Assembly: GCA_038065695.1 (NCBI GenBank)
Contig: JBBTQN010000016.1
Location: 11,738 to 75,737, forward strand
From: Patescibacteria group bacterium
Lineage (GTDB): Bacteria; Patescibacteriota; Patescibacteriia; 2-01-FULL-39-33
DNA length: 64,000 nucleotides
Reading direction: 5' to 3'
Shown here: piece after piece, positions 1 to 61,566 of the stretch
Position numbering within the stretch: position 1 is the stretch's first letter
Layout: each line of letters begins with the position of its first letter
Translations under genes and position numbers: made by a program
Notes under the pieces: model-generated
The model's input: the letters and a program-made list of their open reading frames with translations, nothing else
Told to the model about the DNA's origin: nothing
Databases searched by the model: none

Positions 1-1796
1 AAATACTGGCCGGTAATTGATTTTTTATTTTTCTTAATCTGCTCAAAGGTGCCTGCGGCGACCACTTCACCGCCGCGGATGCCCGCGCCCGGCCCGATAT
101 CAAGGAGCTGGTCGGCCGCGGCCATCATCTGTTCGTCGTGCTCCACGACAATCACGGTGTTGCCTTTGTCGCGCAATTTTCTCAAGGTTTCAATCAATTT
201 GGCGTTATCCCGGGCGTGCAAGCCGATGGACGGCTCGTCCAAAATATAAGTGACGCCTTCCAAACCCGAACCGATTTGCGTCGCGAGCCGCACCCGTTGC
301 GCCTCACCGCCGGCAAGCGTGTTCGCGCTCCTTGACAGGGTGAGATAGTTTAAGCCGACATTTTGCAAGAAGCCGATTTTCCTCAAAATTTCTTTCAAAA
401 CCTGTTTGGAAATCTTGCCTTCGCGCGAAGCGCCTTGCCATTTCTTGCCCAGGTCGGCGAAAAATTTCTCCGCTTGGTCAATATCGATATTGGTGACTTC
501 CACGATATTGAGATTATCAATCGTGACCGCCAAACTCTCGGGCTTAAGCCGCGCGCCGCGGCAGGTGGGGCAAGTGGAGACGCGCATATATTCTTCCAAA
601 GTTTTTTGCAAATATTCTGATTTGCCTTGATCGTATTTTTTGTTCAAAAAACCGATGACGCCGTCAAATTGCCTTTTTTCATCGCCAGCGTCGTAAAATT
701 CGCCGTCGCCGTAAAAAATAGTTTGGAGCGCTTTTTCGGCAAGCTCGGCCACGGGCGAATTCAAATCAAACTTGTGTTTTTTCGCCACCTGCTCCAGCAG
801 TTTAAAATTGGAATTTTGGGAAGCAAAATTCCGCGCCCAGGGCTTTACCGCGCCCTCGGCCAAAGTAAGCCGGCGATTCGGGATGACCAAATCCGGGTCA
901 AAAACCATTTTAACGCCGAGGCCCTTGCAAGCCGGACAGGCGCCATAAGGCGAGTTGAAGGAGAAACTTCTCGGCTCCACTTCAGGCAAAGAAACCCCGC
1001 ATTCGCGGCAAACATAATAAAGGTTAAAGGGCAATTCTTTATCCTTTTCCGGAAGATAGATATTGATAAATCCGTCGCCCAAATCCAAAGCCAGATTGAC
1101 CGCTTTGGCCAGTCGCTGCCATTCAATGTCGTCTTGGTCTTGCTTTTTGAGCTCTTCGGACAAAACAATATTATCAATTAAAATTTCAATCGTGTGCGCC
1201 AAATTCTTGTCCAATTTCAGCTCCCGCGCCTCGTCAATGTTATAAAAATGGCCGTCTATTCGAAGCAATTCGTAATTGGCTTTATTAATCGCTTCTATTT
1301 GGGCGGTGTGAACGCCCTTTTTGTGATAGACGACCGGCGCTAAAATTTGGATTCTTTCGCCTCCAGGCAAGCTGATGATCTGTTCCAAAATCTGCGCCGG
1401 CGTCTGGCGAGAAACCTCTTGGCCGCATTTAGGGCAATGGATGACGCCGACTTTGGCATATAAGAGTCGCAAATAATCGTAAATCTCGGTAATCGTGCCG
1501 ACCGTGGAACGCGGATTGACCGAAGACGATTTCTGGTCAATGGCGATGGTGGGAGTGAGCCCCTCAATACTGTCCACATCCGGCTTGTCCATTAAATCCA
1601 AAAACTGTTTGGCGTAGGAAGACAAACTCTCGGCGTAACGCCTTTGGCCTTCGGCGTAAATCGTGTCAAAAGCCAGCGAGGATTTGCCCGAGCCCGAGAG
1701 TCCGGTGATGACCACCAGTTTGTTTTTGGGAATATCAACGCTGATGTTTTTCAGGTTGTTGACGCGCGACCCTTTGATGGAAATTTTATCCGGCAT
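1..1796 (-). CDS. uvrA: excinuclease ABC subunit A (UvrA), N-terminal ~598 aa; C-terminal half lies beyond window start
   Basis: Minus-strand translation from ATG at 1796 reads [54 protein letters not shown]..., with CxxC zinc-finger pairs and the [22 protein letters not shown] signature. The frame is still open at position 1 (...[17 protein letters not shown]). Confidence 0.9.
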
Positions 1797-1800
1797 ATCG

Positions 1801-1845
1801 TCGTCCCCCTCCCCTTACGAAGGGGAGGGTTGGGGAGGGGTTTAG
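1801..1845. repeat. GGGGAGG-family palindromic element (half unit): ccctccccttacgaaggggagggttggggagggg, directly upstream of uvrA start
   Basis: Hairpin CCTCCCCTT-N-AAGGGGAGG followed by TTGGGGAGGGG. The same architecture recurs at 24113-24226, 44515-44612 and 54511-54565. Confidence 0.8.
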
Positions 1846-1904
1846 AAAATAAAAAGTCAACATTTATTATATACGAAACCGTCAAGGGTGTCAAAGGGAA
1901 TTTA

Positions 1905-1950
1905 TAACCAGTAACCAGTAACTGGTAATTGGTAATTGGTAATTGAATTT
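1905..1950. repeat. short tandem/inverted word repeat (accagtaaccagtaactggtaattggtaattggtaatt)
   Basis: Direct reading. A related ggtaattggtaaatggtaactggtaatt word occurs at 41101-41130. Confidence 0.7.
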
Positions 1951-1959
1951 TTTTAACAA

Positions 1960-2340
1960 AACCTCCTCCTCCGTCATTCCCGTCCCCGCCTTCGCGAGGA
2001 TAAACTCCAGCGGGAATCCAGACTAATTCCAATTAAATCCGTGACTTTATCCTGGATCCCGGCTTTCGCCGGGATGACGGAAAAAAAAGGAGAAAAAATG
2101 TGGGACAAAAAATCCCCGCGTAATAAGACATCTTATCACGCGGGGGAACAAAAGGGGTCAAAGGGGTCAGGACTGCCCGCCTGCTTCGCTATGCGAAGCA
2201 TTGCGGGCAGGCTTGCGGACGGCCGCGAAACGCCAAAAGTCGTAGAAATCATCCCCAAGCCAGCCGAGGTCCAAGACGCGCCTAGCACTGCCCCCGTCGA
2301 GGCAGGCGAAGCGACGACCGCCGACGGCACTACGCCAAGT
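1960..2340. repeat. GC-rich hairpin repeat region (tcattcccg...cgggaatccag; tcctggatcccggctttcgccgggatgacg; gcccgcctgc...gcgggcaggc)
   Basis: Local GC is far above that of flanking DNA and several perfect stems are present. The plus-frame translation gives the repeat-derived peptide SWIPAFAGMT. Confidence 0.6.
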
Positions 2341-2877
2341 TGAGCCCAGCGCTCCGATTGGAAACTGCCTTTGAAGTTCGGGCTGGGCAGCGCCCAGAGC
2401 CAGAAGCTCTTCAATCTTGGCGGGACGATAGCCGAGTTTGTCTATCTCGGCCAGTACCTCATCGCCGTTGTTGAAATGGCGGTTGAAATGAAGAAGCTCC
2501 ACCGTCACTTCTTGTTTGCCTGTTCCAGTGATTGGGAAGTGTTCGGCGGTGATGTCCGGGTTCTCCCGGTCATACTTGCCGGCGGTAATTATGTCGGCGA
2601 GGGATTGGGTGTAATCGATGACGAGATTGTATTTCCCTGCCACATAGCGGCTGGCTTCTTCGGCCGCTTGGCGCGCCGTTTGAGCAGTAAAGATTTCCGC
2701 GACTTTGCGAGTTGTGATAATCATTTCCGCGACTCTTTGTTTTAAATTTTTATCCGTCTCTAAAAGACGCAAATCATCGTCGCTTCCGCCTGCCGCGAGC
2801 ACCTCATCGGCAAGCGCCTTAAAAACCTGAAACGCCTTGCCAAACGCCTGCAAAAATTCACTCTTTGGCTTACCCAT
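2167..2877 (-). CDS. hypothetical protein; C-terminal ~60 aa read through the GC-rich repeat region
   Basis: The ORF 2167..2916 is minus-strand. The likely start is MGKPKSEF at 2877, and there is no recognisable family. The 3' end overlaps repeat DNA (2167-2340). Confidence 0.45.
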   Translation of the reverse strand: MGKPKSEFLQAFGKAFQVFKALADEVLAAGGSDDDLRLLETDKNLKQRVAEMIITTRKVAEIFTAQTARQAAEEASRYVAGKYNLVIDYTQSLADIITAGKYDRENPDITAEHFPITGTGKQEVTVELLHFNRHFNNGDEVLAEIDKLGYRPAKIEELLALGAAQPELQRQFPIGALGSTWRSAVGGRRFACLDGGSARRVLDLGWLGDDFYDFWRFAAVRKPARNASHSEAGGQS

Positions 2878-3025
2878 CTTCTCACTCCTTATTTTTATGG
2901 CCTGCCACCTGTCCAAAGCCCATCTCCGGACTTATGGCTTACCATTATCCGCGTTAAAAGGACAACGAGTCATTATAGCAACCTTCGATAATTCTGTCAA
3001 ACTGCTATTTAGCGCATAACAAAAC

Positions 3026-3165
3026 GCGTAGAGACGTTGTGCTGCAACGTCTCCGGAGCCGTAGCATCGCTACGGCTCTACCTAACAAAACCGCCCTTCA
3101 GCGGTTTCATTGTAGAGACGCGGCGGTGCCGCGTCTCAAAAGACGCCCCAGCGGGGCGTCTGCTA
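3026..3165. repeat. cluster of five consecutive GC-rich hairpins (agagacgttgtgctgcaacgtctc; gagccgtagcatcgctacggctc; aaaccgcccttcagcggttt; gagacgcggcggtgccgcgtctc; agacgccccagcggggcgtct)
   Basis: Perfect inverted repeats read directly. They belong to the gtagagacgc...gcgtctctac family, also seen at 27728-27755, 45568-45630, 54927-54995 and 60215-60244. Confidence 0.8.
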
Positions 3166-3175
3166 CATTTTTATA

Positions 3176-4072
3176 TTACAGCCCAAATTTTTTAATATTT
3201 TCATTCGCGATTTTCTGGATTTTGGCGATTTCCGCTTTGCCGGCCGGCGAAGCAAATAAATGTTTGAATCTTTTTTGAACTTTTAAAAATTCTTCAACGG
3301 GGATTTTTTTATTTATCTTTATCCTCCCGACCAGCTCGCCGTTGACATATTCAATTATCGGATAAGATCCCGACTGAACCGCGAGTTGCGCCACCGAAAC
3401 CGTGTCTTTGGCTTCAATCCCCCAGCCCGGCACGCACGGCGTATAAATTTGTAAATATTTCGGACCCTTGATGCTCAAGGCCTTTTTCACCTTGGCCGTC
3501 AAATCCGGCAGATCGCCGACCGTGACGGTCGCCACATAAGGCAAATGATGCGCCAAAGCGATTCCGATCATATCCTTTTTAGACAAATCATTGCCGAAAG
3601 AACGCTCCCCGGCTGGAGTGGTGGTGGTATTAGCGTCCAGAGGCGTGGCGCCGCTGGACTGGTAGCCGGTATTTTGGTACGCCTCGTTGTCGTAGCAGAT
3701 GTATAAAATATTTTCGCCCCGTTCCCACATGCCGGAAATATTTCCCAAGCCGATGTCAAAAGTCGCGCCGTCCCCGCCGATGGCAATAATATTTATGTCT
3801 TTGTCTTTTTTTTGGTATTTCAAGGCCGCCAAAATGCCGGAAGCGACCGAGGAGGCATTTTCAAACAAGCTATGGATGTAAGGCGTCTTAAAAATAGTGT
3901 TGGGATACTTCGTCGTCGTCACTTCCATGCAGCCGGTGGCGTTGGTGATGATCGTGTCGGGCCCGGCCGCGTCAATTATAAGCCGCAGCGCCACGATCAT
4001 CCCGCAGCCGGCGCAAGCGCTGTGCTTCGGGGAAAAATTTCTGGATAGGGGAGATTTATATTTTTTATTCAT
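3176..4072 (-). CDS. porB: pyruvate/2-oxoacid:ferredoxin oxidoreductase beta subunit (TPP-binding)
   Basis: Carries HSACAGCGMIVALRL and GCME Cys motifs, the IAIGGDGATFDIG TPP-binding motif and YDNEAYQNTG. Confidence 0.9.
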   Translation of the reverse strand: MNKKYKSPLSRNFSPKHSACAGCGMIVALRLIIDAAGPDTIITNATGCMEVTTTKYPNTIFKTPYIHSLFENASSVASGILAALKYQKKDKDINIIAIGGDGATFDIGLGNISGMWERGENILYICYDNEAYQNTGYQSSGATPLDANTTTTPAGERSFGNDLSKKDMIGIALAHHLPYVATVTVGDLPDLTAKVKKALSIKGPKYLQIYTPCVPGWGIEAKDTVSVAQLAVQSGSYPIIEYVNGELVGRIKINKKIPVEEFLKVQKRFKHLFASPAGKAEIAKIQKIANENIKKFGL

Positions 4073-12772: not shown

Positions 12773-12859
12773 CGAAGTCAAAAGTCTATAAAGTCTATAA
12801 AGTCAAAAGTTTAAAAATGACTTTGGACTTTAAGGACTTTCGACTTTAAGACTTCGTTC
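12773..12859. repeat. AT-word palindromic spacer of the 'tataaagtc/gactttata' family
   Basis: The sequence is gtcaaaagtctataaagtctataaagtcaaaagtttaaaaatgactttggactttaaggactttcgactttaagac. The same word set appears at 50461-50520, 57730-57842 and 61445-61566. Confidence 0.75.
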
Positions 12860-12944
12860 GCCGATGTGGCGGAATTTGGTAGACGCGCACGGTTCAGAGC
12901 CGTGTTCCCGCAAGGGAGTGAGAGTTCAAATCTCTCCATCGGCA
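12860..12944 (+). tRNA. tRNA-Leu (anticodon CAG), long variable arm, no encoded CCA
   Basis: Full cloverleaf read by eye: acceptor gccgatg/catcggc, anticodon loop ttCAGag, variable hairpin tcccgcaaggga and T-loop ttcaaat. Confidence 0.85.
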
Positions 12945-12960
12945 CAAAACCATCTCTCTT

Positions 12961-16133: not shown

Positions 16134-16208
16134 TTGGCAGGGGCGGAAGGTGATGCTCCCTCGTCTGAGGTTTTGGAGACCTCCGTTCTACTGTTGAACT
16201 ACGCCCCC
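16134..16208 (-). tRNA. tRNA-Trp (anticodon CCA), encoded CCA; noncanonical D-loop (single G) and T-loop (AGCATCA)
   Basis: The minus strand reads GGGGGCG-TA-GTTC-AACAGTA-GAAC-G-GAGGT-CTCCAAA-ACCTC-AGAC-GAGGG-AGCATCA-CCTTC-CGCCCCT-G-CCA, and all four stems pair. Confidence 0.6.
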
Positions 16209-16238
16209 ATATATGGCCTAGGCCATATATTTCTTTAA

Positions 16239-16394
16239 TTATTTCGTTTCCTTGTGCGCCGTGTGCTTGCGGCAATGTTTGCAATATTTTTTCATTTCCA
16301 ATCGGTTCTTTAAAATCTTTTTATTTTTGCGGGAAAAATAATTGATTTTTTTGCAAACCGCGCACTCCATTTTGATTAAGTTTTCTTGGGACAT
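16239..16394 (-). CDS. rpmG: 50S ribosomal protein L33
   Basis: Reads MECAVCKKINYFSRKNKKILKNRLEMKKYCKHCRKHTAHKETK. The ORF track extends to 16445, but that would overlap tRNA-Thr, so the start is placed at the Met at 16394. Confidence 0.8.
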   Translation of the reverse strand: MSQENLIKMECAVCKKINYFSRKNKKILKNRLEMKKYCKHCRKHTAHKETK

Positions 16395-16418
16395 AAATAT
16401 TTTATTAATTATTCTGCA

Positions 16419-16490
16419 AGCCGACCGTCGGGATCGAACCGACAACCTACGGTTTACAAAACCGTTGCTCTACCATTGAGCTAGGTCGGC
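16419..16490 (-). tRNA. tRNA-Thr (anticodon TGT)
   Basis: Reads GCCGACC-TA-GCTC-AATGGTA-GAGC-A-ACGGT-TTTGTAA-ACCGT-AGGTT-GTCGG-TTCGATC-CCGAC-GGTCGGC-T. Confidence 0.85.
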
Positions 16491-16543
16491 AAATTTAATG
16501 GTGCCTTCCGGGTTGACCCAATGCGCCGTTTTTCTTTTTAATA

Positions 16544-16625
16544 TGGGCCGGGAGGGATTCGAACCCCCGAAGGCATAGCCAAGAGATTTACAGTCTCCCC
16601 CAGTTGACCACTTTGGTACCGACCC
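16544..16625 (-). tRNA. tRNA-Tyr (anticodon GTA), long variable arm
   Basis: Reads GGGTCGG...GACTGTAAATC...GGGGGTTCGAATCCCTCCCGGCCCA. Confidence 0.8.
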
Positions 16626-16626
16626 A

Positions 16627-16702
16627 TGGAGCCGTTGCGCGGATTTGAACCGCGGACCTACTCCTTACCATGGAGTTGCTCTACCAGCTGAGCTACAACG
16701 GC
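16627..16702 (-). tRNA. tRNA-Thr (anticodon GGT), encoded CCA
   Basis: Reads GCCGTTG-TA-GCTC-AGCTGGTA-GAGC-A-ACTCC-ATGGTAA-GGAGT-AGGTC-CGCGG-TTCAAAT-CCGCG-CAACGGC-T-CCA. Confidence 0.85.
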
Positions 16703-36408: not shown

Positions 36409-36663
36409 TTATATTCTTGTATTCTTGTAAACCACCCGCCACCTTTTATCCTTACTCATCGGCCGGCATTCGATAAACTCAATCACATCCCCGATCTTGT
36501 ATTGATTCTTGGGATCGTGGACTTTATACTTTTTGCTTACTTTATATCTCTTGTGGTATCTGGGGTGCATTTTAAAACGGTCAATTTTAACCACGACGGT
36601 CTTTTCCATTTTATCGGAAACCACTTCGCCTTTGAATTTTTTTAATATTTTATTTTCCTTCAT
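36409..36663 (-). CDS. rpsQ: 30S ribosomal protein S17
   Basis: Reads [27 protein letters not shown]. Confidence 0.9.
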
Positions 36664-50460: not shown

Positions 50461-50700
50461 CGATGAAGTTGAAAGTTTATAAAGTCTGTAAAGTCAAAAG
50501 TCTGACGACGACTTTATTTTATATTAACATTATTGACTTATTTTGACAAATATGATAAGATTATATCCATAAACAAATATCTTGAGAATTTTTAATTTCC
50601 AATTTTTAATTTTTAAATAATTTTTAATGATTTAATTTTTAAAAATTAGAAATTAGATCATTATTTAAAAATTACAAAATTAAAAATTAAAAATTTCATT
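50461..50700. repeat. AT-word palindromic spacer ('tataaagtc' then 'ttaaaaatt' words)
   Basis: Direct reading. Confidence 0.6.
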
Positions 50701-56858: not shown

Positions 56859-57554
56859 CTATCTGACAACACAGTTTTCCACAAACCGACTCGCGAGGTC
56901 GCGAAACTCCGCCATTTCGCCCACCGAAAAACTCGCACCGGTATAATTTTTCTCAATCAATTCGCCTTGGGGCGAAAAATTCTGTAAATAATACGTCTGG
57001 GCGCCGGCAATCAGCTCAACCATTTTGGTCAAATCCTCTTTCTGATGGAATCCTTTAATTAAAGTGCTTCTAAATTCATGGGGCAGACCGCTGTCTCTGA
57101 TAATTTTTACGCTTTCTTTAATCGCTTCTTCAGCCACGGCCTGGCCGCAAATTTCTAAGTAACGGCCCAAAGGCGCTTTGATGTCCATCGCCAGATAATC
57201 AATCAGCCCCGCCTCAATTAATTTTTTCAAAACATCGGGCAAAAGCCCGTTGGTGTCCAATTTGACCGAATAATCGATTTTTTTTATTTCTGCTAAAAAT
57301 GCCGCGAGATCGGCTTGGATGGTCGGCTCGCCGCCGGAAATCACCGCGCCGTCCAGATATTTTCTTCTTCTGTTTAAATATTCAAAAACATAATCTTCCG
57401 GCATTGGGTTTCCGGCTGAAATGAGCTCGGGCAAAACCAAATTCGGATTATAACAAAAAGGACAGCGCATATTACAACCGCTGGTAAATATGATCGCTGC
57501 CACCTTTTGCGGATAATCCAGTAAAGTCACTGGTTGTAATCCGCCGATTTTCAT
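56859..57554 (-). CDS. nrdG: anaerobic ribonucleoside-triphosphate reductase activating protein (radical SAM)
   Basis: Reads TSGCNMRCPFCYNP. Confidence 0.85.
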   Translation of the reverse strand: MKIGGLQPVTLLDYPQKVAAIIFTSGCNMRCPFCYNPNLVLPELISAGNPMPEDYVFEYLNRRRKYLDGAVISGGEPTIQADLAAFLAEIKKIDYSVKLDTNGLLPDVLKKLIEAGLIDYLAMDIKAPLGRYLEICGQAVAEEAIKESVKIIRDSGLPHEFRSTLIKGFHQKEDLTKMVELIAGAQTYYLQNFSPQGELIEKNYTGASFSVGEMAEFRDLASRFVENCVVR

Positions 57555-57573: not shown

Positions 57574-57729
57574 TCAATCGTTTAAGACGCCGCTCTTTTC
57601 AAAAGTCTTCCGGTCGGAAAATTCCGATTGTTTGCCCGGATTCCACTGGTCCACCGGCCGAATGTAGCCGACGACGCGGGAATAAACCTCGCAGAGCTGG
57701 CGTTTCGCTGTTGTTTTGTCACCTTCCAT
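57574..57729 (-). CDS. nrdD: NrdD glycyl-radical C-terminal module encoded as separate 51-aa ORF
   Basis: Translates to MEGDKTTAKRQLCEVYSRVVGYIRPVDQWNPGKQSEFSDRKTFEKSGVLND, which matches the class III RNR C-terminal RVxGY...WNxGKxxE glycyl radical motif. Confidence 0.7.
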   Translation of the reverse strand: MEGDKTTAKRQLCEVYSRVVGYIRPVDQWNPGKQSEFSDRKTFEKSGVLND

Positions 57730-57842
57730 ATAAAAATTTATTTATTAATAAATTTTAATTTATAAAGTCCATAAAGTCGAAAGTCTATAAAGTCGTCTGA
57801 TTAATGACTTTAAGAACTTTATGAACTTTTAACTTTATAGAC
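57730..57842. repeat. AT-word palindromic spacer ('tataaagtc' family) separating nrdD body from its glycyl-radical tail
   Basis: The sequence is ttttaatttataaagtccataaagtcgaaagtctataaagtcgtctgattaatgactttaagaactttatgaacttttaactttatagactt. Confidence 0.75.
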
Positions 57843-59888
57843 TTAAAGCGGCAATTTATCCTCTTGCTGTCTGACAAAACCGATCTCCTCGTCACAAACT
57901 GGACAATAGCGATGTTCGCCATTAAGGTAGCCGTGCTTAGGACAGACCGAAAAAGTCGGCGTCAAGGTGTAGTAGGGCAAACGAAAATTCTCCGCGATTT
58001 TTCTGACCAATTTTTTGGTGCTTTCAATATCAGACAACCGCTCTCCTAAAAAGCCGTGGATGACCGTGCCGCCGGTGTACTTAATTTGCAAATCATCCTG
58101 CTGTTCCAACACTTCAAAGATATCATGGGAAAAATTGACCGGCAAATGAGTGGAATTGGTGTAATAAGGCGCCGCGCCCTTTTCCCGGTAGGCCTCTTCG
58201 TTGGCCACGATAATGTCAGGATAAAGCTCTTTGTCCTTTTTGGCAAATCGGTAGGTCGTGCCTTCCGCCGGCGTCGCTTCCAGATTGTAAAGCTGGTTAT
58301 CTTCTTCTTGATAGCGCGCCAGCCGTTCCAGCATAAAATCAATCACTTTAAGCGCGAATTCCTTGCCTTCGGGCGTGGAAAGCGGCCGATTCATAAAATT
58401 CAAAACCGCTTCATTCATCCCGTTGATGCCAATCGTGTTGAAATGATTGCGCCAGTATTCGCCAAATCGCTCTTTGATGTCGCCAAGATAAAAACGGCTA
58501 TAAGGATAAAGCCCGCTTTCGGTAAAATTTTCCAAAATTTTTCGCTTTAATTCCAAGCTTTGGCGGGATAAATCCATCACTTGACCGAGGCGACTGAAAA
58601 AACCGTCTTGGGTTTTGGCGAGATAGCCGATGCGAGGCAAATTGATGGTGACGACGCCGATGGAGCCGGTCAGCGGATTAGCGGCAAAAATCCCGCCGCC
58701 GCGCTTCCGAAGCTCCCGATTATCCAGCCTCAATCTGCAACACATTGACCTCGCGTCCTCCACTTTCATATCACTGTTGATAAAATTGGCGAAATAAGGA
58801 ATCCCGTATTTAGCGGTCATCTCCCAAATCGGGCTAAGCACTTCATTATCCCAATTGAAATCGCGCGAAATATTATAAGTCGGAATGGGAAAAGTGAATA
58901 CCCGCCCCTTGGCGTCGCCTTCAAACATCACTTCGGCAAACGCCTTATTGATCAAATCCATCTCCGGCTGGAATTCTTTGTAAGTTTCGGTTTGCGGCGC
59001 GCCGCCGATAATAACCGCTTCGTCGGCTAAGGTGGAAGGACACAATAAATCAAAAGTTAAATTACTAAAAGGCGTTTGAAATCCGACTCTGGTCGGCACA
59101 TTCATATTAAACACGAATTCCTGAAGCGCTTGTTTGACCTGTTTGTACTCTAAACCGTCATGGCGGACAAAAGGCGCGAGTAAGGTGTCAAAATTGGCCA
59201 AAGCGACCGCGCCGGCCGCCTCGCCTTGTAAAGTATAAAGAAAATTCACCGCGTGGCCTAAAGCGACGCGGAAATGCTTGGCGGGCTTGCTCTGGACCTT
59301 GCCGTTCACCCCGCCAAAACCGACTCTTAAAATCGCCTGCAAATCCCAACCGCAGCAATAAACCGCGAGAAGTTGGAGGTCATGGAGATGAATGGCGGCG
59401 CTTACATGCGCTTCTCTGATTTCTGGCGGATAGATCTTATTGAGCCAATAATGCGAGCTGACCGAGGAAGCGACGTGATTATTGAGCCCTTGGAGCGAAT
59501 AAGCCATATTGGCGTTTTCCTTGACCCGCCAATCCAATTGCTTCAAATAGCCGTCAATAACATCATTGGAATTAATCAGTTCTTTCAGTTCCCGAAGCCG
59601 AGCGTGCTGTTCGCGGTAAATAATGTAAGATTTGGCCGCTTTAACCAAATCGGCGTCAATTAAAATCTCCTCCACGATATCCTGAATTTCTTCAATCGCC
59701 GGAATTGAGCGAGGATGGAATTTGCTATTGAGTAGCCGCATCACTCGTTCGGCCAATTCTTCGGCCAAAGGCAAATCTTCCCGGCCGACCGCTTTTAGGG
59801 CCTTAAAAACCGCCTGAATGATTTTGTTTTGGTCAAAATCAACAATCCGGCCGTCCCGTTTCTTTACCTGCTTGATTTGGTTTTCCAT
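57843..59888 (-). CDS. nrdD: anaerobic ribonucleoside-triphosphate reductase (class III), ATP-cone + catalytic body + zinc ribbon; lacks glycyl-radical tail
   Basis: Has an N-terminal ATP-cone (VKKRDGRIVDFDQNKI), a catalytic domain and C-terminal CPKHG...CPVC. It ends DEEIGFVRQQEDKLPL without the RVxGY motif. Confidence 0.85.
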   Translation of the reverse strand: MENQIKQVKKRDGRIVDFDQNKIIQAVFKALKAVGREDLPLAEELAERVMRLLNSKFHPRSIPAIEEIQDIVEEILIDADLVKAAKSYIIYREQHARLRELKELINSNDVIDGYLKQLDWRVKENANMAYSLQGLNNHVASSVSSHYWLNKIYPPEIREAHVSAAIHLHDLQLLAVYCCGWDLQAILRVGFGGVNGKVQSKPAKHFRVALGHAVNFLYTLQGEAAGAVALANFDTLLAPFVRHDGLEYKQVKQALQEFVFNMNVPTRVGFQTPFSNLTFDLLCPSTLADEAVIIGGAPQTETYKEFQPEMDLINKAFAEVMFEGDAKGRVFTFPIPTYNISRDFNWDNEVLSPIWEMTAKYGIPYFANFINSDMKVEDARSMCCRLRLDNRELRKRGGGIFAANPLTGSIGVVTINLPRIGYLAKTQDGFFSRLGQVMDLSRQSLELKRKILENFTESGLYPYSRFYLGDIKERFGEYWRNHFNTIGINGMNEAVLNFMNRPLSTPEGKEFALKVIDFMLERLARYQEEDNQLYNLEATPAEGTTYRFAKKDKELYPDIIVANEEAYREKGAAPYYTNSTHLPVNFSHDIFEVLEQQDDLQIKYTGGTVIHGFLGERLSDIESTKKLVRKIAENFRLPYYTLTPTFSVCPKHGYLNGEHRYCPVCDEEIGFVRQQEDKLPL

Positions 59889-60214
59889 AAATTTGCCACA
59901 CCTTCGGAAAAATGAGAAAAAAGATGATAAAAGAGGAATTTAAGCCAAAATTTTAACGAATAAACAGATTTCGGCGGGTGGGGCCAGCCGATTTCAAAAA
60001 TTAAAATTAGAGTAAAAATCACAAAATAAAAAAATAGACCCGCGAGCGAAAATCAATAATTTTAAAATTCAAAAAATCTTCGCCAGATCTATCTTATCAT
60101 TGCTTCCCAACATCTTTAATTATAACACCTTCAAGCCCCTTGTCAAAAATCGCTTTTTGGCTGGTTTTTTAAAATTTTAAAGACGGTTTGGGGATAACAT
60201 TTTGGATAAAAAAA

Positions 60215-60244
60215 GCGTCGAGACGCCCGACGGGGCGTCTCGAC
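60215..60244. repeat. hairpin gcgtcgagacgcccgacggggcgtctcgac downstream of ftsZ
   Basis: A perfect stem, in the gtagagacgc family. Confidence 0.8.
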
Positions 60245-60268
60245 AAATTAATTTCTTGATTTTTTAAT

Positions 60269-61444: not shown

Positions 61445-61566
61445 ATAATTTAGTTTATAAAGTTTATAAAGTTAAAAGTTTATAAAATCATCTTTTTAAT
61501 AATTATTTTTATCTAATATACTTTTGACTTTATAGACTTTATAGACTTTATAGACTTTTGACTTCG
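61445..61566. repeat. AT-word palindromic spacer ('tataaagtt ... gactttatagac' inverted)
   Basis: The pairing gtttataaagtttataaagttaaaagt ... acttttgactttatagactttatagactttatagac forms a near-perfect long palindrome. Confidence 0.75.

What the first reader, a model, noticed from the sequence alone, without database searches (positions are those of the whole stretch)
57574..59888. Class III ribonucleotide reductase NrdD split: glycyl-radical tail is a separate 51-aa ORF behind a 113-bp palindromic AT-word spacer
The 681-aa nrdD ORF contains the ATP-cone, the catalytic body and the C-terminal zinc ribbon (CPKHG...CPVC). It stops 16 codons after the ribbon without the obligatory RVxGY glycyl-radical motif. 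113 bp downstream, and 19 nt upstream of nrdG, an unannotated 51-aa ORF (57574-57729, below the ORF-track cutoff) encodes MEGDKTTAKRQLCEVYSRVVGYIRPVDQWNPGKQSEFSDRK, a textbook NrdD glycyl-radical segment. The intervening DNA (57730-57842) is one of this genome's 'tataaagtc/gactttata' word palindromes, which are otherwise found in intergenic spacers at 12773-12859, 50461-50520 and 61445-61566. Two readings are possible. One is that a palindromic element inserted into nrdD and left a two-polypeptide enzyme whose radical domain is supplied in trans, analogous to GrcA/YfiD rescue of pyruvate formate-lyase. The other is that the element is removed or bypassed at the RNA or translation level. Either would be notable for a glycyl radical enzyme.
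Basis: partly seen in the sequence, partly recalled or inferred. Interest (0 to 1): 0.75.

Follow-up and report, generated by a model that had tools for sequence, protein, structure and literature searches.

The report
Naturally split anaerobic ribonucleotide reductase
In this groundwater bacterium, and in many relatives and phages, the enzyme that makes DNA building blocks without oxygen carries its essential radical-bearing tail on a separate, conserved ~50-residue protein, an arrangement I could not find described for this enzyme class.

Summary
nrdD (57843-59888, minus strand) ends 16 codons after its zinc ribbon and has no RVxGY motif. A 51-aa ORF (57574-57729) encodes the glycyl-radical loop, and nrdG follows 19 nt later. 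The 113-bp palindromic spacer is a lineage-specific passenger, one copy of an intergenic hairpin repeat, and it did not split the gene. The split is old and widespread. All 120 closest homologs of the large protein lack the glycine motif and end in a conserved CxxC-D-x-E-x-G-Y/F tail. Forty-nine related loci have a separate ATG-initiated small ORF behind non-homologous spacers of -1 to 346 bp, in all three relative frames. The small ORF is under strong purifying selection (dN/dS about 0.02-0.05). Some genomes carry a second, unlinked copy inside an IscR-IscU-Nfu-IscS operon. Phage contigs carry solitary copies, and one has the small gene upstream of the large one. The best reading is an obligate two-polypeptide class III RNR whose radical subunit is supplied in trans and activated by NrdG. 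Recoding, splicing, recent disruption and assembly error are all disfavoured. I found no literature describing this.

The parts
57843..59888 (-). nrdD-L: large subunit of class III ribonucleotide reductase (681 aa). It has the ATP-cone, catalytic barrel, zinc ribbon and a conserved acidic tail, but no glycyl-radical motif.
   Evidence: Pfam and NCBIfam hits. The AF2 model (pLDDT 81.8) has class III RNR structures 8P2C, 9D3X, 4U3E and 1H7B as best PDB matches. 120 of 120 closest homologs also lack the Gly motif.
59601..59870 (-). ATP-cone (residues 7-96).
   Evidence: PF03477, E=3e-21.
58737..58742 (-). Finger-loop cysteines C383 and C384 (SMCCRLRLD), the presumed thiyl-radical site.
   Evidence: Both are invariant in the 64-sequence alignment A3. 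The loop at 384-405 has low confidence in the AF2 model of L alone. The assignment as catalytic Cys rests on established NrdD knowledge.
57894..57944 (-). Zinc ribbon, C649-P-K-H652 ... C662-P-V-C665.
   Evidence: C649, H652, C662 and C665 are invariant. The region aligns to the Zn-ribbon end of P. copri NrdD (to residue 703) and T. maritima NrdD (to residue 610).
57846..57893 (-). Conserved C-terminal tail of L (D666-E-E668-I-G670-F-VRQQEDKLPL). It is a signature of split-type large subunits.
   Evidence: D666 and G670 are invariant and E668 is >=90% conserved. The tail motif CxxCD-x-E-[IVM]-G-[YF] is in nearly all of the 120 homologs. Tail dN/dS is about 0.15. The tail is unstructured in the AF2 model of L alone.
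57730..57842 (-). 113-bp AT-rich intergenic spacer. It holds an imperfect hairpin built from TATAAAGTC/GACTTTATA words (arms 57765-57793 and 57816-57844; the upstream arm overlaps the TAA stop by 2 nt).
   Evidence: It is shared only with the close relative L090. There is no real Rfam match and no intrinsic-terminator signature.
57574..57729 (-). nrdD-S: 51-aa glycyl-radical subunit. The radical glycine is G21 (codon 57667-57669) in RVVGY.
   Evidence: HMM matches to the NrdD C-terminus. It aligns to 8P23 residues 712-737 and 4COI residues 616-645. More than 200 stand-alone homologs exist. G21 and 14 other columns are invariant. dN/dS is 0.017 against L090.
56859..57554 (-). nrdG: radical-SAM activase (231 aa, CNMRCPFC cluster motif).
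   Evidence: TIGR02495 NrdG2 at 211.5 bits (cutoff 131) and PF04055.
60119..60146 (-). Consensus sigma-70-type promoter (TTGACA-16-TG-TATAAAT-like, 12 of 12 matches) about 230 nt upstream of nrdD-L. It is the likely operon promoter. It is preceded by a strong terminator-like hairpin after ftsZ (60216-60245).
   Evidence: This is a pattern match only; function is inferred.
12773..12859 (+). Another copy of the palindromic word-repeat, between a 610-aa ORF and tRNA-Leu (MFE of the region -72 kcal/mol, including the tRNA).
61445..61566 (-). Another copy of the palindromic word-repeat. It fills the whole ftsA-ftsZ spacer.
50478..50520 (-). A shorter copy of the same word-repeat hairpin in an intergenic spacer.

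Best explanation
[quoted passage not shown] L (681 aa) provides the ATP-cone, the barrel with the finger-loop cysteines, and the zinc ribbon. S (51 aa) is translated independently from its own ATG and carries the RVVGY glycine. Inferred steps: NrdG uses S-adenosylmethionine to place the radical on G21 of S, and S docks into the barrel of L so that the glycyl radical can generate the thiyl radical on C383/C384. The conserved extra peptides at the fission point may form the docking interface; these are the L tail D-x-E-I-G-Y/F... and the S head MEG...RQxC. Oxygen cleaves glycyl-radical proteins at the glycine, so only the cheap 51-aa subunit would be lost and could be replaced. That would amount to a built-in 'spare-part' logic. 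The 113-bp palindrome is an unrelated intergenic hairpin repeat of this lineage that landed in the pre-existing L-S spacer. At most it modulates the relative expression of the cistrons.
For: Shown:
1. L and S together cover the NrdD profile contiguously, and the break falls in the ~5-residue linker between the Zn ribbon and the Gly loop of solved NrdDs.
2. 120 of 120 closest L homologs (down to 67% identity) lack the Gly motif and share the CxxC-D-x-E-x-G-[YF] tail.
3. The best 120 hits to S in the 5.8-billion-protein set are all 39-90 aa proteins. In an exhaustive HMM search, 149 of the best 150 hits are 45-166 aa.
4. Of the 80 loci kept from the species-genome scan, 49 split L-S pairs were characterised (46 from that scan, 3 from the reverse look-ups). 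The small ORF always starts with ATG. Spacers run from -1 to 346 bp (median 21) and are non-homologous. Relative frames 0/1/2 occur in 22/8/19 loci. L stop codons are TAA 37, TAG 8, TGA 4.
5. A reverse test picked three L proteins without reference to S, and all three have an adjacent 48-54-aa S ORF plus nrdG.
6. Clear Shine-Dalgarno sequences precede S in several lineages (L045, L060, L062, L053, L025). In this genome only 6 of 60 genes have any SD-like 4-mer, and the AT-rich leader of S is the genomic norm.
7. Purifying selection acts on S. For window against L090, dN=0.013 and dS=0.75. The median dN/dS is 0.045 over pairs with unsaturated dS. The L tail has dN/dS about 0.15.
8. Unlinked S paralogs sit in IscR-IscU-[S]-Nfu-IscS operons (L009, L022, L026). 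L022 and the nrdD-linked L024 are from the same MAG.
9. Of 65 viral contigs, 54 carry short stand-alone S-type ORFs with no L or NrdG within 3 kb. Twelve of 80 viral L genes are split, and in one (L207) S lies upstream of L.
10. The palindrome is absent from all but the closest relative.
Against: There is no biochemical, transcript or peptide evidence; everything is comparative. The AF2 model of L alone leaves the tail and finger loop at low confidence, which is uninformative about docking. The NJ tree of L does not make split forms cleanly monophyletic. Intact NrdDs of Paceibacterota, Moranbacteria, Peregrinibacteria and L081 interleave, so the history (one ancient fission with re-fusions, or several fissions) is unresolved. 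In many Dojkabacteria, S is in frame 0, only 18 nt after a single TAA, so occasional read-through fusion there cannot be excluded. The role of the invariant G670 in the L tail is unexplained.
Confidence: 0.8

Rival explanations
1. Recent disruption. A palindromic mobile element inserted into an intact nrdD in this lineage, leaving either a fresh two-piece enzyme or a pseudogene.
For: The spacer is one copy of a genome-wide intergenic hairpin repeat, and its upstream arm abuts the stop codon.
Against: The same split point and the same conserved L tail and S head occur in dozens of species with unrelated spacers as short as -1 to 20 bp. Both pieces are under purifying selection. Only L090 shares the element.
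Confidence: 0.02
2. One polypeptide after all. The spacer is skipped or removed by translational bypass, frameshift or read-through, by RNA splicing, or by protein trans-splicing.
For: A strong hairpin starts at the stop codon, superficially like the T4 gene 60 take-off site. In Dojkabacteria the two ORFs are in frame, separated by one TAA plus 18 nt.
Against: In the window the ORFs are out of frame (113-nt spacer). Across loci all three frames occur, spacer length and sequence are not conserved, and many frame-0 spacers contain further stops. Spacers of -1 to 20 nt are too short for an intron, and Rfam finds nothing. The 16-aa tail and ~10-aa head have no intein blocks and are too short for a split intein (sequence inspection plus general knowledge). 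The unlinked S genes and the S-before-L order (L207) cannot be joined co-translationally.
Confidence: 0.04
3. L does not need S for catalysis. Either the invariant glycine G670 in the L tail (D-E-E-I-G-F/Y) is itself the radical site, or L uses another radical source. S would then be only a facultative spare part or regulator.
For: G670 followed by an aromatic residue is invariant, and 'IGYIR' in many relatives resembles 'VGYIR' of the true motif.
Against: The tail lacks the conserved Arg-Val of the RVxG[YF] fingerprint and has Glu-Glu instead. It sits only 4 residues after the last zinc ligand, against >=11 in solved NrdDs. Minimal tails end 2-3 residues after the GY (CPKCDEEIGYKS*), leaving none of the downstream segment conserved in all NrdDs. 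S retains every conserved residue of the canonical Gly loop.
Confidence: 0.05
4. Assembly or sequencing artefact: a frameshift or chimeric join.
For: None beyond the general possibility in metagenome assemblies.
Against: The identical locus appears in independent ENA and Logan assemblies (9 contigs), and the architecture recurs in more than 50 species and in phages.
Confidence: 0.01

Closest known systems
Canonical class III ribonucleotide reductase NrdD/NrdG (E. coli, phage T4, T. maritima, P. copri)
   Same: Same fold, ATP-cone, finger-loop cysteines, zinc ribbon, RVxGY glycine loop and adjacent radical-SAM activase.
   Different: In all characterised enzymes the glycyl-radical loop is the C-terminus of the same polypeptide. 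Here it is a separate 51-aa gene product. L has acquired a conserved D-x-E-x-G-Y/F tail, and S a conserved N-terminal head.
GrcA/YfiD of E. coli and Y06I of phage T4 (autonomous glycyl-radical cofactors, 'spare parts' for pyruvate formate-lyase)
   Same: Each is a small stand-alone protein that carries a glycyl-radical loop, is activated by the cognate activase, and is thought to insert into a large catalytic partner. Phage-encoded copies exist (T4 Y06I; here).
   Different: GrcA is homologous to the PFL C-terminus (Pfam Gly_radical), whereas S is homologous to the NrdD C-terminus (PF13597). PFL keeps its own radical domain, so GrcA is a facultative replacement after oxygen damage. Here L has no radical domain at all, so S would be obligatory. 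A June 2026 review states that formate lyases are the only GRE class with known spare-part proteins (PMC13450708).
Split class II ribonucleotide reductase NrdJa/NrdJb (Pseudomonas aeruginosa; Crona et al. 2015, cited in PMC9669993)
   Same: It is an RNR catalytic chain encoded as two consecutive genes, with extra residues at the fission point proposed to mediate association.
   Different: It belongs to a different RNR class (B12-dependent). Its split is at a different place, with the C-terminal IscU-like and Zn-finger domains on NrdJb. The radical cofactor is not on the small piece.
REP/BIME-like or MITE-like intergenic palindromic repeats
   Same: There are multiple imperfect-palindrome copies confined to intergenic spacers between co-directional genes.
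   Different: These are built from tandem 9-nt words (TATAAAGTC)n followed by their complement. Related tandem-word arrays occur in at least 119 metagenome stretches, mostly without the inverted half. No transposase, TIRs or target duplications were identified.

Membership tests
Class III RNR (NrdD) | Sequence membership in curated NrdD models above cutoff | tested here: met
   L scores 1032.9 bits against NF006126 (cutoff 548) and 515.5 bits against TIGR02487 (cutoff 326).
Class III RNR (NrdD) | RNR/GRE ten-stranded barrel fold | tested here: met
   The AF2 model (pLDDT 81.8) matches 8P2C, 9D3X, 4U3E and 1H7B by Foldseek at E 1e-33 to 1e-24, TM about 0.6-0.76.
Class III RNR (NrdD) | Finger-loop cysteine(s) for the thiyl radical | tested here: met
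   C383 and C384 in SMCCRLR are invariant in 64 homologs.
Class III RNR (NrdD) | C-terminal zinc ribbon | tested here: met
   C649, H652, C662 and C665 are invariant, with His at the second ligand position.
Class III RNR (NrdD) | Glycyl-radical motif RVxGY on the same polypeptide | tested here: not met
   The motif is absent from L and from 120 of 120 closest homologs. It is present on the separate 51-aa ORF.
Class III RNR (NrdD) | Cognate radical-SAM activase NrdG | tested here: met
   TIGR02495 scores 211.5 bits (cutoff 131), and the gene starts 19 nt after S.
Class III RNR (NrdD) | NTP reduction activity and a glycyl-radical EPR signal | not testable with these tools
   This requires anaerobic biochemistry.
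GrcA/YfiD autonomous glycyl-radical cofactor | Small stand-alone protein with a glycyl-radical loop | tested here: met
   S is 51 aa with its own ATG and an in-frame stop 4 codons upstream. More than 200 stand-alone homologs exist.
GrcA/YfiD autonomous glycyl-radical cofactor | Homology to the PFL C-terminal domain (Pfam Gly_radical PF01228) | tested here: not met
   The only Pfam hit is PF13597 NRDD. S is therefore an analogue, not a family member.
GrcA/YfiD autonomous glycyl-radical cofactor | The partner enzyme retains its own radical domain (facultative rescue) | tested here: not met
   L and all its close homologs lack the domain.
Programmed translational bypass or frameshift (T4 gene 60 type) | Conserved geometry: fixed gap and frame, matched take-off and landing codons | tested here: not met
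   Spacers run from -1 to 346 nt, frames 0/1/2 occur in 22/8/19 loci, and spacer sequence is not conserved.
Intron or intein-mediated joining | A structured intron RNA or intein blocks at the junction | tested here: not met
   There is no Rfam family in the spacer. Spacers as short as -1 to 20 nt occur. The junction peptides are 16 and ~10 aa with no intein motifs (sequence inspection).
REP/MITE-like intergenic palindromic repeat (spacer element) | Multiple imperfect-palindrome copies restricted to intergenic DNA | tested here: met
   There are 9 word occurrences against 0.8 expected, in 5 intergenic clusters, and three fold as long hairpins.
REP/MITE-like intergenic palindromic repeat (spacer element) | Evidence of mobility (target-site duplications, empty sites) | tested here: inconclusive
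   More distant relatives have 'empty' but non-homologous spacers. L090 has the same element. No target-site duplication was identified.

The most novel reading that the evidence does not exclude
S-type proteins may be a previously unrecognised class of exchangeable 'radical cartridges' for class III RNR. In this reading NrdG activates a free ~50-aa peptide, which then plugs into a radical-less catalytic subunit and is swapped out after oxygen damage. Second copies would be co-regulated with Fe-S cluster repair (the IscR-IscU-S-Nfu-IscS operons). Phages would encode solitary S or Zn-ribbon+S proteins to re-arm or hijack the host's reductase during infection. That would make the NrdD glycyl-radical loop a mobile, trans-acting cofactor protein across Patescibacteria, DPANN archaea and their viruses.
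Probability: 0.4. Interest if true: 0.9.

Novelty: new variant of a known kind. Interest (0 to 1): 0.8.

Why it matters
Glycyl-radical enzymes are defined by a radical glycine at the C-terminus of the catalytic chain. The only known exception in logic is the facultative PFL spare part GrcA, and a 2026 review says no other class has one.

An obligately two-piece class III RNR would have several consequences:
- It would give a natural system for studying how an activase recognises and radicalises a free glycine-loop peptide, and how that loop then enters the barrel. This conformational step is a long-standing problem for all glycyl-radical enzymes.
- It suggests a cheap way to survive transient oxygen exposure, which is relevant to the ecology of ultra-small groundwater bacteria that depend on this single enzyme for dNTPs.
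- It explains why many Patescibacteria NrdDs look 'truncated', and why ~50-aa ORFs, which fall below many gene-calling or display cutoffs, must be kept in annotation.
- It points to phage auxiliary genes of a new kind.
- It offers a minimal radical domain for engineering.

Tried and rejected
1. phmmer of the 51-aa ORF alone against PDB sequences found nothing. The profile A1 was needed to map it onto 8P23 and 4COI.
The AF2 model of L alone was uninformative about the tail.
3. An Rfam scan of the spacer gave only a spurious miRNA-precursor-like hairpin hit below threshold.
4. The promoter and terminator scan found no terminator and only a weak promoter-like site (9 of 12) inside the spacer, no better than shuffles.
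5. I considered a split intein and rejected it on size and the absence of motifs.
6. I considered UGA recoding and rejected it: TAA is the dominant L stop, and the window uses TAA.
7. I tried to decide between a single and multiple origins of the split with an NJ tree of 260 aa. It was inconclusive.
8. The context of a 115-aa Zn-ribbon+Gly-loop protein (P0285) was on a 1-kb contig with unidentifiable neighbours.
9. I tested whether solitary-S phage contigs also encode L elsewhere. This could only be checked within 3 kb and against the best 80 of 192 L-bearing viral loci, so it is not settled.
10. Literature searches for split nrdD, split class III RNR, or NrdD in CPR found nothing relevant. 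Subscription-only papers were not searchable.
Full report
OBSERVATION

On the minus strand the window carries three genes in a row. nrdD (57843-59888, 681 aa) is followed by a 113-bp spacer. Next comes a 51-aa ORF (57574-57729), then 19 nt, then nrdG (56859-57554, 231 aa).

The large protein (L) has an ATP-cone and the NRDD body. It matches NCBIfam NF006126 at 1032.9 bits, but only over profile positions 2-654 of 684. The small ORF (S) matches positions 649-683 of the same model and the last 32 positions of Pfam NRDD. L ends CPKHG...CPVCDEEIGFVRQQEDKLPL*. S reads MEGDKTTAKRQLCEVYSRVVGYIRPVDQWNPGKQSEFSDRKTFEKSGVLND.

Against solved structures, L aligns to P. copri NrdD (8P23) up to residue 703 and to T. 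maritima NrdD (4COI) up to residue 610. The S profile aligns to 8P23 residues 712-737 and 4COI residues 616-645. The break therefore falls in the short linker between the zinc ribbon and the glycine loop. An AF2 model of L (pLDDT 81.8) has class III RNRs as its best PDB matches.

The same L protein lies on 9 contigs from independent assemblies. The three shown have the identical spacer and S ORF, so this is not an assembly error.

THE SPACER

The spacer contains an imperfect hairpin with arms at 57765-57793 and 57816-57844 (-31.6 kcal/mol, z=-6.3 against shuffles). It is built from TATAAAGTC words and their complement. The word occurs 9 times in the window against about 0.8 expected. All occurrences are in five intergenic clusters: 12781-12850 just before tRNA-Leu, 36520-36545, 50478-50520, the nrdD spacer, and 61457-61560, which fills the ftsA-ftsZ spacer.

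It has no U-tract and is not called as a terminator, and there is no real Rfam match. The element is thus a genome-wide intergenic hairpin repeat with no specific link to nrdD.

THE SPLIT IS OLD AND WIDESPREAD

A homolog search with S returned 206 clusters, and the best 120 are all stand-alone proteins of 39-90 aa. Many come from Patescibacteria, Parcubacteria and Dojkabacteria MAGs. Their alignment has 15 invariant columns, including G21, and a conserved start, MEG... in the window's clade.

An exhaustive HMM search of 1.84 billion cluster representatives gave 4970 hits. Of the best 150, 149 are 45-166 aa. Of the 147 not already retrieved, 139 are <=100 aa and 132 of those begin with Met.

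A scan of one genome per species gave 584 relatives. The 80 loci kept were a mix of split and intact genes. Split loci come from Buchananbacteria, Veblenbacteria, Dojkabacteria/WS6, CPR2 and unclassified Patescibacteria. One contig labelled Woesearchaeota also has the split, and its neighbour gene matches the archaeal-type TIGR01578 model. Intact genes come from non-CPR organisms and from Paceibacterota, Moranbacteria and Peregrinibacteria.

Conversely, all 120 best homologs of L (down to 67% identity) lack a glycine motif. Nearly all end with CxxC-D-x-E-[IVM]-G-[YF] followed by 2-30 variable residues. D666 and G670 are invariant in a 64-sequence alignment, and E668 is >=90% conserved. I chose three L proteins without reference to S, and all three have an adjacent 48-54-aa S ORF and nrdG.

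TWO POLYPEPTIDES, NOT ONE

I characterised 49 L-S pairs:
- The spacer ranges from -1 to 346 bp (median 21). It is AT-rich and non-homologous between lineages, and it folds significantly in only a few.
- The relative frame is 0, 1 or 2 in 22, 8 and 19 loci.
- L stops are TAA 37, TAG 8 and TGA 4.
- S always starts with ATG.

Canonical Shine-Dalgarno sequences precede S in L045, L060, L062, L053 and L025. In the window genome only 6 of 60 genes have any SD-like 4-mer, so the AT-rich leader of S is typical of real genes here.

S is under strong purifying selection. For window against L090, dN=0.013 and dS=0.75. The median dN/dS is 0.045 over pairs whose dS is not saturated. The L tail is also constrained, at about 0.15. 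Synonymous variation in the Gly3 codon (GGT, GGC, GGG) shows that the MEG head is conserved at the protein level.

Three genomes carry S away from nrdD, between IscU/NifU-N and Nfu in an IscR-IscU-S-Nfu-IscS operon (L009, L022, L026). L022 and the nrdD-linked copy L024 come from the same MAG.

In IMG/VR, 54 of 65 loci found with the S profile are short stand-alone ORFs with no L or NrdG within 3 kb. Their neighbours are phage-like: endolysin, HNH, SbcC-like protein and peptide deformylase. Some of these proteins carry their own zinc ribbon before the glycine loop. Among the 80 best viral L genes, 12 are split. Eight have S 29-115 bp downstream, and one (L207) has S upstream of L.

Unlinked and permuted genes cannot be joined by read-through, hopping or cis-splicing. 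The junction peptides are also far too short for a split intein.

THE PALINDROME DID NOT CAUSE THE SPLIT

Only the closest relative (L090, with a 94% identical S) shares the palindrome. Relatives with 27-, 32-, 59- and 96-bp spacers do not have it. It is therefore a passenger that landed in an existing intergenic spacer, as other copies did between ftsA and ftsZ.

MECHANISM (INFERRED)

The three genes appear to form one operon behind a consensus promoter at 60119-60146. I propose the following steps:
- NrdG radicalises G21 of S.
- S docks in the barrel of L next to C383/C384.
- The extra conserved residues that exist only in split forms, the L tail and the S head, make the interface. Together they put about 29 residues where intact enzymes have about 5.
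- Because oxygen cleaves glycyl-radical proteins at the glycine, only S would be consumed.

The isc-linked paralogs fit this picture, since they could be co-induced with Fe-S repair. So do the phage-borne copies. This last part is speculative.

Two points are unexplained. The first is why G670-[YF] is invariant in the L tail. It resembles the VGY of the true motif, but it lacks the Arg-Val and sits 4 residues after the zinc ligand. It could be a remnant of a duplication at the fission point or a structural element. The second is whether the split arose once. The NJ tree is not decisive. The intact L081 has the linker CPKCDEDD-MSPQKLERQKCEVYS, whose Met sits where split forms start. That is compatible with either the pre-fission state or a re-fusion.

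COMPARISON WITH WHAT IS KNOWN

The system is a class III RNR by every sequence and fold criterion except one: the radical motif is not on the catalytic chain.

It works like GrcA/YfiD with PFL, but S is not a member of that family, because it is NrdD-derived. S is also obligatory rather than facultative, because L has no radical domain.

A split RNR is known for class II (NrdJa/NrdJb), but the split there is at a different place and the chemistry differs.

Full-text searches for split nrdD, split class III RNR, or NrdD in CPR found nothing. [quoted passage not shown] Databases already hold these small ORFs under the generic name 'anaerobic ribonucleoside-triphosphate reductase'. NCBIfam, Pfam and PHROGs have no dedicated family for them.

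VERDICT

It has a wider family of autonomous NrdD-type glycyl-radical proteins in Patescibacteria, probably in DPANN archaea, and in phages. Confidence in the two-polypeptide architecture is about 0.8. All functional steps await biochemistry.

Noticed in passing
L009 3501-3674; L022 3001-3159; L026 626-796: A second, unlinked copy of the small glycyl-radical gene sits inside an Fe-S assembly operon (Rrf2/IscR - IscU/NifU-N - S - Nfu - IscS/NifS). L022 and the nrdD-linked copy L024 come from the same Buchananbacteria MAG.
   Followed up: partly
L097-L161 (IMG/VR), e.g. L102 2992-3123 and L151 2893-3153: 54 of 65 viral loci carry solitary NrdD-type glycyl-radical ORFs with no NrdD body or NrdG within 3 kb. 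Their neighbours are phage-like (endolysin, HNH, SbcC-like protein, peptide deformylase). Two architectures occur: the Gly loop only (about 45-60 aa), and a Zn ribbon plus the Gly loop (about 75-150 aa).
   Followed up: partly
L207 352-456 (S) and 501-3545 (L): This viral contig has the small radical gene upstream of the large subunit gene, so the gene order is permuted.
   Followed up: no
L025 963-3165: A split nrdD (4-bp spacer, good Shine-Dalgarno) lies on a contig labelled Woesearchaeota. Its neighbour gene matches the archaeal/eukaryal-type TIGR01578 methylthiotransferase above cutoff, which suggests the split also exists in DPANN archaea.
   Followed up: partly
L004 1-3482 and P0153, P0165, P0166, P0173, P0174, P0176, P0177: Several split-type large subunits are about 1000-1330 aa. 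The Dojkabacteria gene on L004 carries faint precomputed intein/LAGLIDADG Pfam hits, so an intein insertion is likely there. The ~1003-aa P-series proteins are long by length alone and were not examined for inteins.
   Followed up: no
L081 (intact NrdD), junction CPKCDEDDMSPQKLERQKCEVYS: This intact relative has a linker that contains a Met exactly where split-form small ORFs start, and the linker resembles the N-termini of some stand-alone S proteins (P0386, P0304). It is either the ancestral state or a re-fusion.
   Followed up: no
window 57876-57881 (G670-F671) and the homologous tails in P0121-P0240: An invariant Gly followed by Tyr or Phe lies 5 residues after the last zinc-ligand Cys of every split-type large subunit (CD-x-E-I-G-Y). 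In many relatives the motif 'IGYIR' echoes 'VGYIR' of the true radical loop. Its role is unexplained.
   Followed up: partly
L242-L321 (metagenome contigs): The 24-mer AAAGTCTATAAAGTCTATAAAGTC occurs in at least 119 metagenome stretches from many environments, often as long tandem arrays of the 9-nt word. Only 17 of 80 have the inverted half nearby. The word repeat is therefore far more widespread than this genome.
   Followed up: partly
window 59889-60146 (-): A perfect TTGACA-16-TATAAT promoter lies about 230 nt upstream of nrdD, leaving a long AT-rich 5' leader with a small GC hairpin (cggctggccccacccgccg). A possible NrdR box or regulatory RNA was not examined. A relative (L095) has nrdR immediately upstream of nrdD.
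   Followed up: no
window-wide gene starts: Only 6 of 60 genes have any Shine-Dalgarno-like 4-mer within 22 nt of the start. Nearly all have AT-rich leaders such as ATTTTTAAAATT-ATG, so this genome largely initiates without SD pairing.
   Followed up: partly
window 16135-16702 and 12860-12945: A tRNA cluster (Trp, Thr, Tyr, Thr) lies on the minus strand. A tRNA-Leu(CAG) sits immediately after one copy of the palindromic repeat.
   Followed up: no
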